Shown here: piece after piece, positions 4,204 through 4,709 of the stretch
Numbering within the stretch: position 1 is the first letter of the stretch
Layout: every line of letters starts with the position of its first letter
Source: Escherichia coli
Lineage (GTDB): Bacteria; Pseudomonadota; Gammaproteobacteria; Enterobacterales; Enterobacteriaceae
DNA: 4,727 nt
Assembly (NCBI RefSeq): GCF_011045215.1
Contig: NZ_CP049203.1
Strand: one strand, 5' to 3'
Translations under genes and position numbers: made by a program
Notes under the pieces: generated by a model
What the model saw: the letters and a program-made list of their open reading frames with translations, nothing else
Databases searched by the model: none
Told to the model about the DNA's origin: nothing

Positions 4204-4683
4204 CTATTTATCACCATTCGCAGCTACCCGGTCACTACCCCCATTAAGAACAAAAATTAGATCTATTGATAATAATCCTTCTGACTTTATTCTTTCAGGA
4301 TAAAAAAAAGATGAGTCACCATCCACCACTTCTTGTAGTTTCTTGTGTAATTTTTGACAGTCAGGTAATGAATTTTCTGCAAAATCATTAAAAATAACAA
4401 CATCTGGAGGAAGCAGATCTTTTACGTTTGTATTCCCTGTAGTAATTGAGATTTTACAAACTCCTCGCCCATTAAAATCCACCAACTTCTTTTGAAGCCT
4501 ATCTCTATATATACCCAATTCACGCTGAATAACGTCCGTGTATGAAGAGTCAACGATAGAATTATCGTACTTTATATCATTAAGATATTCATATATTTCT
4601 TTTACTGAATTTGTCTCTCGCTCCCAATTAGGAGCAACAAATATGCTTACGGAAGCATAAATACTTCCCGAAAACAATATCAT
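4204..4683 (-). CDS. Hypothetical exported or membrane-anchored protein (159 aa); candidate immunity/partner protein of the lysozyme-like bacteriocin
   Basis: A 160-codon ORF in AT-rich DNA, where stop codons are frequent. The N-terminus MILFSGSIYASVSIFVAPNW is a hydrophobic signal- or anchor-like segment; the remainder is hydrophilic. No homology recognised. The functional call is inference. Confidence 0.65.
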   Translation of the reverse strand: MILFSGSIYASVSIFVAPNWERETNSVKEIYEYLNDIKYDNSIVDSSYTDVIQRELGIYRDRLQKKLVDFNGRGVCKISITTGNTNVKDLLPPDVVIFNDFAENSLPDCQKLHKKLQEVVDGDSSFFYPERIKSEGLLSIDLIFVLNGGSDRVAANGDK

Positions 4684-4709
4684 TGCACAAAAAAAAATCT
4701 TTTCAACAT
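4680..4709 (-). CDS. Possible 9-codon leader ORF (MLKRFFFVQ) translationally coupled to the 159-aa gene through an ATGA overlap
   Basis: ATG at 4709-4707 is preceded by GGGGGAGA, though the spacing is short (a TTG one codon downstream has better spacing). Its TGA stop (4682-4680) overlaps the ATG of the main ORF (4683-4681), which has no Shine-Dalgarno of its own. It contains a T9 run. Confidence 0.25.
   Translation of the reverse strand: MLKRFFFVQ

What the first reader, a model, noticed from the sequence alone, without database searches (positions are those of the whole stretch)
4680..4709. Short leader ORF with ATGA start/stop overlap and a T9 homopolymer ahead of the 159-aa gene
The 159-aa ORF has no Shine-Dalgarno sequence of its own. 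Upstream, GGGGGAGA precedes a 9-codon ORF whose TGA stop overlaps the main ATG, the classic arrangement for translational coupling. The same stretch contains nine consecutive T on the coding strand (A9 at 4689-4697 on +). One extra T would fuse the leader in frame and give the protein a canonical MLKRFFF... positively charged signal-peptide start. The tract could therefore be a homopolymer sequencing error or a slipped-strand on/off switch.
Basis: seen in the sequence. Interest (0 to 1): 0.45.

Follow-up and report, generated by a model that had tools for sequence, protein, structure and literature searches.

The report
Slippery T9 frameshift in immunity gene
A run of nine T's splits off the export signal of a bacteriocin-immunity gene on a small E. 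coli plasmid; this out-of-frame form is real and is the common natural allele, so exported protein probably arises only when a polymerase or ribosome slips on the run.

Summary
On the minus strand, SD GGGGGAGA (4718-4711) precedes ATG 4709. A T9 tract lies at 4697-4689. The leader stop TGA (4682-4680) overlaps ATG 4683 of the 159-aa ORF.

The "leader" is not an evolved leader. It is the orphaned first seven codons of a Sec signal peptide. The gene is the putative periplasmic immunity gene of an SOS-box-preceded, T4-lysozyme-like bacteriocin operon on a 4,727-bp circular ColE1-type plasmid. All ten family representatives encode one contiguous ORF with a signal peptide and two invariant Cys. Met10, the source of the ATGA overlap, is not conserved.

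T9 is not a one-off sequencing error. All 27 other independent copies read at a site that could have shown another length have T9. The 159-aa product is indexed on hundreds of contigs. In-frame T10 alleles are a minority of about 4% and occur on all three SNP haplotypes. Many assemblies break exactly at the tract. The tract length therefore changes recurrently.

Most likely mechanism (inferred, untested): T9 is a leaky frameshift. One extra U from RNA-polymerase slippage, or a -1 ribosomal shift on U_UUU_UUU, gives the same 168-aa preprotein as T10. T10 is a heritable in-frame variant. Rivals are a pure on/off switch, a pseudogene, and a coupled truncated protein.

The parts
4711..4718 (-). 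Shine-Dalgarno-like GGGGGAGA serving ATG 4709
   Evidence: Read directly. Homologs have GGGAATGGA or GGGTGG at the same place before their start codon.
4680..4709 (-). 9-codon 'leader' ORF (MLKRFFFVQ*). It consists of the first 7 codons of the ancestral signal peptide, 2 out-of-frame codons and the stop.
   Evidence: Residues MLKRFFF align with the n-region and the start of the h-region of the homologs' signal peptides.
4689..4697 (-). T9 homopolymer (A9 on the + strand); the frameshift and slippage site. It contains the heptamer U_UUU_UUU (4695-4689) in the leader frame.
   Evidence: T9 in 27 other independent copies. T10 in L003 and L014-L020.
4680..4683 (-). ATGA overlap: main ATG 4683-4681 and leader stop TGA 4682-4680
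   Evidence: It derives from the in-frame codons ATG-ATA (Met10-Ile11) of the T10 reading. Met10 is not conserved in the family.
4654..4709 (-). Signal-peptide-coding region, interrupted by the 1-nt deficit. Predicted cleavage is IYA|SV.
   Evidence: Family alignment A2. The AF2 model has low confidence for residues 1-20, and the first strand of the fold is at residues 22-25.
4204..4683 (-). 159-aa ORF: the immunity-type protein lacking the n-region and half of the h-region of its signal peptide. The mature domain has two invariant Cys.
   Evidence: Gene order is toxin, this gene, then lysis gene in the homologous plasmids.
59..808 (-). 249-aa bacteriocin-like gene with a T4-lysozyme-type domain (PF00959). 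It lies immediately upstream on the circular molecule.
   Evidence: The catalytic Glu/Asp/Thr of T4 lysozyme are aligned and conserved. It is intact in all related loci, whether T9 or T10.
851..898 (-). Putative SOS-regulated promoter: TTGACA at 898-893 and the LexA-box-like TACTGTATATAAACACAGT at 869-851
   Evidence: Read directly. The LexA consensus CTG-N10-CAG is from established knowledge. No experiment.
3..39 (-). 13-bp perfect stem-loop between the toxin stop and the immunity SD (GATGTATTTCATC ...11 nt... GATGAAATACATC)
   Evidence: The same stem occurs in p1303_5. A different-sequence hairpin occupies the same place in the Klebsiella plasmid.
4085..4203 (-). Degenerate remnant of a colicin-type lysis (release) lipoprotein gene
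   Evidence: It aligns to the annotated lysis genes of p1303_5 and the Klebsiella plasmid. It lacks a start codon, has an in-frame stop and has lost the lipobox Cys.
4302..4309 (-). Second homopolymer (T8 on the coding strand) inside the immunity ORF
   Evidence: One metagenome variant (P0015, 131 aa) is frameshifted there.

Best explanation
The window is a complete circular ColE1-type plasmid. Its cargo is a colicin-style operon with three parts:
- an SOS-box promoter;
- a 249-aa T4-lysozyme-like (pesticin-like in function) bacteriocin gene;
- a gene for an exported, probably periplasmic, immunity-type protein.

The reported 'leader plus 159-aa gene' is that single immunity gene. A 1-nt deficit in a T tract lying in the signal-peptide codons (Phe-Phe-Phe-Cys; T10 in frame, T9 here) has split it.

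T9 is the real and predominant natural allele. It most likely behaves as a leaky frameshift. E. coli RNA polymerase slips on runs of 9 T/A and adds a U to a fraction of transcripts. Ribosomes can also shift -1 on U_UUU_UUU at a lower rate. Both events yield exactly the 168-aa preprotein MLKRFFFCAMILFSGSIYA|SV... that T10 encodes. The result would be a reduced but non-zero supply of exportable protein.

The same tract also slips during replication. This gives heritable T10 (fully in-frame) variants and probably mixed plasmid populations.

Unslipped messages give the 9-residue peptide. By termination-reinitiation at ATGA they probably also give some N-truncated 159-aa protein. That protein lacks a functional signal peptide and is probably useless.

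Shown: the anatomy, the family architecture, the allele frequencies and the recurrent length change. Inferred: slippage at the RNA and ribosome level, the sufficiency of the slipped product, and the immunity function itself.
For: 1. Single-gene origin.
- The T10-corrected protein aligns from residue 1 to homologs at 55% and 37% identity. Those homologs are annotated as one ORF between a lysozyme-like gene and a colicin lysis gene.
- All ten 50%-cluster representatives have an M-[K/R]-hydrophobic-AxA signal peptide and two invariant Cys.
- In the AF2 model, residues 1-20 are disordered and the fold starts at residue 22.

2. T9 is real and dominant.
- T9 is present in 27 of 27 other independent copies that were not selected for T10: L004-L013, L021-L023, L025-L028, L030-L034 and L037-L040.
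- The 159-aa product P0008 is on 208 contigs and in 337 index blocks.
- The T10 products P0001, P0004, P0006 and P0007 are on about 10 contigs.

3. Recurrent length change.
- T9 and T10 both occur on each of the three SNP haplotypes. The two SNPs are compatible with a tree, whereas the tract shows all four gametes with each SNP.
- Circular-plasmid contigs from at least 30 samples are cut exactly at T9|GTG.

4. The toxin gene is intact (249 aa, PF00959, catalytic E/D/T) in every T9 and T10 locus. A completely dead immunity gene next to it would be unexpected.

5. Mechanistic precedent.
- Runs of 9 A/T cause efficient transcriptional slippage and are selected against in coding regions.
- Shigella mxiE needs one non-templated U at a U run to fuse two ORFs.
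- Frameshifted E. coli genes can be restored in mRNA (PMC1088944; PMC5009743).
- UUUUUUU is depleted in E. coli genes in all frames (PMC4066793).
Against: - There are no RNA or protein data, so the yield of slipped product is unknown.
- The frameshift is confined to one very young lineage (about 99.8% identical copies). Conservation therefore cannot show selection for T9. More distant homologs have no T run.
- There are no convincing -1 frameshift stimulators. The SD-like element ends 16 nt before the heptamer. The first downstream hairpin starts about 20 nt after it.
- The adjacent lysis gene is degenerate, so the module may be under relaxed selection. The T9 allele could then simply be a null.
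- Some T10 calls (for example L018, which also has an aberrant T11 at another tract) may be assembly errors.
- The immunity function of the family is inferred from gene order only. It has no homology to Pim and no Pfam, NCBIfam or PDB match.
Confidence: 0.45

Rival explanations
1. Pure DNA-level phase variation (a contingency locus). T9 is OFF, with no exported immunity. T10 is ON. Slipped-strand mispairing during plasmid replication toggles the state. RNA-level or ribosomal slippage is physiologically negligible.
For: Both tract lengths exist on all three haplotypes. Assemblies break at the tract in many samples. A T10 sublineage with a private SNP recurs in several samples (L003 in 4 samples, L019 in 3). 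A repeat in signal-peptide codons is a classic place for phase variation; Neisseria opa is an example from my own knowledge.
Against: The plasmid is a multicopy ColE1 type, and an immunity protein acts in trans. A per-copy switch therefore gives no clean cell-level ON/OFF. OFF being about 25 times commoner than ON next to an intact toxin gene is hard to reconcile with immunity being needed. Transcriptional slippage on 9 T by E. coli RNA polymerase is expected on biochemical grounds (PMC1088944).
Confidence: 0.2
2. Pseudogene or relaxed selection. The T9 deletion inactivated a gene that is dispensable in this lineage (no lysis gene, little release of toxin, hosts resistant anyway). It spread by hitch-hiking with a successful small plasmid. 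T10 copies are occasional revertants or errors.
For: The neighbouring lysis gene is clearly degenerate. The lineage is too young for further decay to be visible. No T run or split is seen in any other branch of the family.
Against: The toxin ORF and the rest of the immunity ORF are intact in all loci examined. No T8 or T11 or interrupted tracts were found among 27 copies; this is weak evidence, since about 1 would be expected. Pesticin and colicin M also lack lysis genes yet keep immunity (PMC3390615; the colicin M part is my own knowledge).
Confidence: 0.2
3. The short ORF is a functional leader. Translational coupling through ATGA drives synthesis of a 159-aa protein that is the functional product, either cytoplasmic or exported or anchored by its hydrophobic N-terminus MILFSGSIYASVSIFVA.
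For: A strong SD precedes the leader, there is no SD before ATG 4683, and stop and start overlap exactly. A 10-bp stem pairs 4727-4718 with 4685-4676 and would occlude the internal AUG unless the leader is translated. The first 18 residues of the 159-aa protein are fairly hydrophobic (my hand calculation gives a mean Kyte-Doolittle value of about 1.7).
Against: The arrangement is absent from all homologs. They encode one ORF with a full signal peptide, and Met10 is not conserved. The truncated N-terminus lacks the basic n-region and has only ILF left of the h-region. The segment SVSIFVAP is a strand of the folded domain and is conserved in the mature proteins. Two invariant Cys point to a periplasmic, disulfide-bonded protein. 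The RNA stem is not present in the p1303_5 homolog.
Confidence: 0.1
4. The T9 in this record is a homopolymer sequencing or assembly error, and the true plasmid has T10.
For: Homopolymers are error-prone. T10 versions exist.
Against: T9 is found in 27 of 27 other independent copies from isolates and metagenomes assembled by different groups, and in hundreds of indexed contigs.
Confidence: 0.03

Closest known systems
Shigella flexneri mxiE (mxiEa/mxiEb) transcriptional-slippage site, and more generally 9A/9T slippage sites in bacterial genes and IS elements
   Same: Both have a run of T's on the coding strand in an enterobacterial plasmid gene. Both have a short upstream ORF and a long downstream ORF offset by one nucleotide. 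One non-templated U in the mRNA fuses them into the homolog-supported full-length protein (PMC1088944; PMC5009743).
   Different: Slippage in mxiE is demonstrated experimentally and the out-of-frame arrangement is the fixed gene structure. Here nothing has been measured. In-frame T10 alleles coexist. The split lies inside a signal peptide rather than between domains.
Phase-variable contingency loci with repeats in the 5' coding or signal-peptide region (for example Neisseria opa CTCTT repeats, and poly-G/poly-A tracts in Haemophilus, Campylobacter and Helicobacter surface genes); from my own knowledge
   Same: A hypermutable repeat lies in the signal-peptide-coding part of a gene for an exported protein. 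Natural alleles differ by repeat length and toggle the reading frame.
   Different: This is a homopolymer on a multicopy plasmid in E. coli. The OFF length dominates heavily. Within-strain switching and a phenotype have not been shown.
Rescue of frameshifted genes by polymerase infidelity at poly(A/T) tracts (Buchnera, Blochmannia; E. coli examples in Baranov 2005)
   Same: An indel in a long A/T run disrupts an ORF that is still needed. Slippage restores a fraction of correct mRNA (PMC1088944 Fig. 5 legend; PMC5009743).
   Different: Those cases are in chromosomal genes of endosymbionts or in single strains. Here the case is a widespread plasmid allele, with the in-frame allele still segregating.
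Pesticin/Pim of Yersinia pestis pPCP1 (a muramidase bacteriocin with a periplasmic immunity protein)
   Same: Both reside on a ColE1-type plasmid. In both, the toxin has a T4-lysozyme-like activity domain and the partner is a small protein bearing a signal peptide (PMC3390615).
   Different: The immunity protein is not homologous to Pim (hhalign probability 0.1%). The toxin shares only weak similarity with the pesticin C-domain and has an N-terminal region of only about 65 aa. Gene order and orientation differ: same strand with toxin then immunity here, convergent in pPCP1.
Translational coupling by overlapping stop/start (ATGA/TGATG) in bacterial operons; from my own knowledge
   Same: The upstream ORF has an SD, its stop overlaps the next ATG, and the downstream start has no SD.
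   Different: The 'upstream ORF' is a fragment of the same gene, created by a frameshift. The arrangement is not conserved in homologs.

Membership tests
Utilised transcriptional-slippage (recoding) site | Uninterrupted run of at least 9 A or T on the coding strand within an ORF overlap | tested here: met
   T9 at 4697-4689.
Utilised transcriptional-slippage (recoding) site | A change of one nucleotide in the mRNA fuses two ORFs into a protein whose full length is supported by homologs | tested here: met
   The +1 T reading aligns from residue 1 to homologs and equals the natural proteins P0006 and P0007.
Utilised transcriptional-slippage (recoding) site | The out-of-frame arrangement and the run are conserved among orthologs, which is evidence of selection | tested here: inconclusive
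   The arrangement is conserved in hundreds of near-identical copies. The lineage is very young, T10 alleles coexist, and more distant homologs lack the run.
Utilised transcriptional-slippage (recoding) site | Heterogeneous mRNA tract lengths and a full-length protein demonstrated | not testable with these tools
   Needs cDNA amplicon sequencing and Western blot or mass spectrometry.
Programmed -1 ribosomal frameshift site | X_XXY_YYZ slippery heptamer in the zero frame | tested here: met
   U_UUU_UUU at 4695-4689 in the leader frame. A -1 shift gives the same product as T10.
Programmed -1 ribosomal frameshift site | Stimulatory element at the proper spacing: an upstream SD-like element at about 10-14 nt, or a downstream structure at about 5-9 nt | tested here: not met
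   The SD ends 16 nt before the heptamer. The nearest stable downstream hairpin starts about 20 nt after it. The spacing rules are from my own knowledge.
Phase-variable contingency locus | Hypermutable simple repeat in the 5' coding region whose length sets the frame | tested here: met
Phase-variable contingency locus | Natural length polymorphism arising recurrently (homoplasy) | tested here: met
   T9 and T10 occur on each of three SNP haplotypes. Contig breaks lie at the tract. Some T10 calls could be assembly errors.
Phase-variable contingency locus | High-frequency reversible switching within a strain, with an ON/OFF phenotype | not testable with these tools
   Needs reads, fluctuation tests and immunity assays.
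Evolved leader ORF with translational coupling | SD-led upstream ORF whose stop overlaps the downstream start | tested here: met
Evolved leader ORF with translational coupling | The arrangement (separate leader, internal start codon) is conserved in homologs | tested here: not met
   All ten representatives and the annotated homologs are single ORFs, and Met10 is not conserved.
Sec-exported (periplasmic) bacteriocin immunity protein | N-terminal n-h-c signal peptide with an AxA-type cleavage site, conserved across the family | tested here: met
   Met for the T10 reading and for all homologs. No dedicated signal-peptide predictor was available; this was judged from the alignment.
Sec-exported (periplasmic) bacteriocin immunity protein | Genetic linkage: lies directly downstream of a bacteriocin gene in an SOS/lysis-gene operon | tested here: met
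Sec-exported (periplasmic) bacteriocin immunity protein | Protects against the cognate toxin | not testable with these tools
   No experimental data were found for this family.
Pim (pesticin immunity protein) family | Sequence or profile homology to Y. pestis Pim | tested here: not met
   hhalign probability 0.1%.

The most novel reading that the evidence does not exclude
T9 is not a defect. It is the selected state. On the high-copy ColE1 backbone, the exported immunity protein would be made only through RNA-polymerase slippage or -1 frameshifting at the tract, as a built-in attenuator. Alternatively, cells would carry a balanced mixture of T9 and T10 plasmid copies. Either case would be the first recoding- or heteroplasmy-controlled immunity gene in a colicin-type system.
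Probability: 0.25. Interest if true: 0.6.

Novelty: new member of a known kind. Interest (0 to 1): 0.45.

Why it matters
The gene is annotated in public databases as an SD-less 159-aa hypothetical protein, and that annotation is probably wrong. The biologically meaningful product is a 168-aa exported preprotein.

If the T9 allele really supplies immunity by slippage, bacteriocin immunity genes would join the short list of bacterial genes expressed through transcriptional recoding. It would also show how a multicopy plasmid can tune the dose of an exported protein.

The operon itself is an uncharacterised, widespread system in E. coli, Klebsiella and Raoultella. It pairs a lysozyme-type bacteriocin with an immunity-type partner of unknown fold.

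Tried and rejected
- Megablast of the 3' cargo against PLSDB and against complete E. coli genomes found no match. Only the ColE1 backbone matches at the DNA level.
- Exact-pattern scans of genome contigs and viral contigs found nothing. The metagenome scan found 3 loci, all T9.
- Colicin Z was considered as the identity of the operon and rejected. Its immunity gene is oppositely oriented, its immunity protein is a 4-TM protein without a signal peptide, and its plasmid is different (PMC6668396).
- Pim homology was rejected.
- The immunity protein has no PDB sequence match, no PDB fold match and no NCBIfam match.
- The 10-bp RNA stem that sequesters the internal AUG was considered as evidence for evolved coupling. 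It is absent from the p1303_5 homolog, whose region folds no better than shuffles, so I treat it as lineage-specific or chance.
- Classical -1 frameshift stimulators were looked for and not found at the proper spacing.
- A correlation between T10 and low-copy plasmids was considered. L003 and L019 are on a ParM/PemK plasmid. T9 also occurs on long contigs such as L006, so this is not established.
- dN/dS and decay tests were not attempted because diversity is too low.
- A 2026 preprint reports a 'pesticin' plus immunity gene on a small E. coli ED1a plasmid, with the toxin seen in supernatant. I could not establish whether it belongs to this family.

Full report
**1. Observation**

The minus strand of the window reads ATTGGGGGAGAT-ATG-TTG-AAA-AGA-TTT-TTT-TTT-GTG-CAA-TGA-TATTG.
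- GGGGGAGA is at 4718-4711.
- The leader ATG is at 4709-4707.
- The T9 tract is at 4697-4689. It is the longest homopolymer in the plasmid.
- The leader stop TGA is at 4682-4680.
- The ATG of the 159-aa ORF is at 4683-4681, and that ORF runs to 4204.
- No SD-like purine run precedes ATG 4683.

Every element of the finding sits at the stated coordinates. A run of 9 or more A/T appears in about 9% of mononucleotide shuffles of the AT-rich cargo, so the run alone is not remarkable.

**2. Context**

The window is a whole circular plasmid.
- The only contig holding the exact 159-aa protein is 4,727 bp long.
- Related contigs read continuously across the window's ends, as ...GAAATACATCTA|AATATTATTGGGGGAGAT....
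- Positions 1116-4000 are a ColE1/Rop backbone. The rest has no near DNA match in PLSDB or in complete E. coli genomes.

On the minus strand the cargo forms one operon.
- It begins with TTGACA and a LexA-box-like TACTGTATATAAACACAGT at 898-851.
- Next comes a 249-aa gene at 808-59 with a Phage_lysozyme domain. The catalytic Glu, Asp and Thr of T4 lysozyme align and are conserved.
- A perfect 13-bp stem-loop follows at 39-3.
- The SD and the split gene come after that.
- The operon ends with a degenerate remnant of a colicin-type lysis gene, which has no start codon and has lost the lipobox Cys.

In the homologous plasmids p1303_5 (E. coli; 55% identity for this protein) and several Klebsiella and Raoultella plasmids (35-37%), the order is lysozyme-like gene, this gene, then an annotated colicin release lysis protein. 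I therefore call the 159-aa gene an immunity-type gene. That call rests on position only.

**3. What the 'leader' is**

With one extra T the reading is MLKRFFFCAMILFSGSIYA|SVSIFVAP...
- tblastn with this 168-aa protein aligns from residue 1 to the homologs.
- The homologs' annotated starts sit behind comparable SD sequences. They encode MIKRLLFLYVALLFLSEGAYA|SV and MIRFVIAAFISILTIKGAFA|DI.
- An exhaustive search of 1.8 billion cluster representatives found a small family of 13 members at E below 1e-10.
- In the alignment of the ten full-length representatives, all have a basic n-region, a hydrophobic core and an AxA-type site. Two Cys are invariant. The internal Met is not conserved.
- An AlphaFold model (pLDDT 84) has residues 1-20 at low confidence. 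The first beta-strand, at residues 22-25, belongs to the fold.

The 9-codon ORF is therefore the orphaned start of a Sec signal peptide. The ATGA overlap arises automatically from the in-frame codons GCA-ATG-ATA once one T is missing. It is not an evolved coupling device.

**4. Is T9 an error?**

No.
- The protein database holds the 159-aa form (P0008) on 208 contigs and in 337 index blocks from NCBI, ENA, JGI and Logan. It also holds several single-substitution variants.
- In-frame forms of 168 or 180 aa (P0001, P0004, P0006, P0007) are on about ten contigs.
- I read the tract in every fetched locus. All ten P0008 loci have T9, as do three metagenome loci found with a pattern that did not fix the tract length, nine loci of two variant proteins, and four complete circular contigs. 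Eight loci fetched through the in-frame proteins have T10.
- No T8 or T11 was seen.

T9 is thus the common natural allele, and T10 makes up roughly 4%.

**5. The tract changes length recurrently**

I aligned 21 operon copies. Two SNPs (window positions 870 and 699) define three haplotypes, AA, AC and GA, which are compatible with a tree. T9 and T10 each occur on all three haplotypes. The tract is therefore homoplasic, through repeated slippage or, for some contigs, repeated error. L018 looks error-prone, because it also has T11 at another tract.

One T10 sublineage (L003 and L019) carries a private SNP. It sits on a larger ParM/PemK plasmid and recurs in several samples. T10 is therefore heritable at least there.

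Contigs representing the circular plasmid in at least 30 samples start at GTGCAATGA and end at ...AAAAGA-T9. The assemblers broke exactly at the tract. This suggests, but does not prove, length heterogeneity among the reads.

**6. Mechanism**

Three routes could give exported protein.

(a) RNA-polymerase slippage.
- Runs of nine A or T cause efficient transcriptional slippage in bacteria and are selected against in coding regions.
- Shigella mxiE requires one non-templated U at a U run to fuse two ORFs.
- Frameshifted E. coli genes can be restored in the mRNA (PMC1088944; PMC5009743).

(b) A -1 ribosomal shift on U_UUU_UUU (4695-4689). This gives the identical product. However, I found no stimulator at the canonical spacing, so I expect this route to be minor.

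(c) DNA slippage to T10.

Unslipped mRNA yields MLKRFFFVQ. By termination-reinitiation it plausibly also yields some 159-aa protein. That protein has lost the basic n-region and most of the hydrophobic core, and its next hydrophobic stretch is part of the folded domain. I therefore consider it unlikely to be exported.

My best reading, at confidence 0.45, is a leaky frameshift whose functional output depends on slippage, with T10 as a heritable in-frame variant. The intact toxin gene in every T9 locus favours some residual immunity. The degenerate lysis gene and the youth of the lineage keep the pseudogene reading alive.

**7. Comparison with known systems**

- The mechanism most resembles mxiE-type transcriptional slippage and homopolymer contingency loci.
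- Functionally the operon resembles pesticin/Pim. The immunity protein is not homologous to Pim. It has no Pfam, NCBIfam or PDB relative.
- It is not colicin Z.
- I found no paper describing this family. A 2026 preprint mentions a pesticin-plus-immunity small plasmid in E. coli ED1a, but I could not link it to this family.

**8. Verdict**

This is a new example of a known kind, a slippage-prone homopolymer frameshift. It sits in an unusual place: the signal peptide of a bacteriocin immunity-type gene on a multicopy plasmid. Its unusual property is that the out-of-frame allele predominates. Interest is moderate, at 0.45.

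Noticed in passing
window 4085-4203 (minus strand): Remnant of a colicin-type lysis lipoprotein gene directly after the immunity gene. It aligns to the annotated lysis genes of p1303_5 and a Klebsiella plasmid. It has no start codon, has an in-frame stop and has lost the lipobox Cys. The same remnant is present in T9 and T10 relatives.
   Followed up: partly
window 3-39 (minus strand); L001 2441-2478; L002 about 1918-1942: A stem-loop lies between the toxin stop and the immunity SD in all three subfamilies. 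The window and p1303_5 share an identical 13-bp stem despite 55% protein identity. The Klebsiella plasmid has a hairpin of different sequence. It may be an attenuator, a terminator or an RNA-processing site that sets the toxin-to-immunity ratio.
   Followed up: partly
L029, L035-L040 (NCBI draft assemblies; at least 30 samples): Circular plasmid contigs of four size variants (4480-4771 bp) are all linearised exactly at the T9|GTG junction. The tract is the weak point of the assembly graph, which suggests read-level length heterogeneity.
   Followed up: partly
window 4302-4309 and 931-938: Two further 8-nt homopolymers. The one inside the immunity ORF is frameshifted in one metagenome variant (P0015, 131 aa). 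The one upstream of the -35 box is T9 in L005 and T11 in L018.
   Followed up: partly
window 613-808 (minus strand; toxin residues 1-65): The bacteriocin-like protein has only about 65 residues ahead of its lysozyme domain. This stretch is rich in Gly, Ser, His and Asp (MSGIESSNQGPGWHDHDTPYGTIHSYDGDNHSSYGGHSGGNSHEG...). That is far shorter than the translocation and receptor domains of pesticin or classical colicins. How it enters cells is unknown.
   Followed up: no
L019 (32-kb contig) and L003: The toxin-immunity module, together with about 400 bp of ColE1 flank, also sits in a larger plasmid carrying ParM/StbA, StbB and MazE/PemK. Both copies there are T10 and share a private Arg-to-Cys SNP.
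   Followed up: partly
L004 and L008 (P0013, 281 aa): Two NCBI contigs contain tandemly duplicated, N-containing copies of the module, and a chimeric 281-aa immunity-toxin fusion ORF. These look like assembly artefacts of a small multicopy plasmid.
   Followed up: no
window 4676-4727 (minus strand): A 10-bp RNA stem pairs AAUAUUAUUG (4727-4718) with CAAUGAUAUU (4685-4676). It encloses the leader ORF and covers the internal AUG. The 128-nt region folds with z = -3.6. The stem is not present in the p1303_5 homolog.
   Followed up: partly
window, immunity protein family (A2; model m7464d1f32edc): The immunity-type protein family (about 160-176 aa, two invariant Cys, confident AF2 model) has no Pfam or NCBIfam family and no PDB fold match. 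One representative (P0030, 1954 aa) contains seven matched stretches.
   Followed up: no
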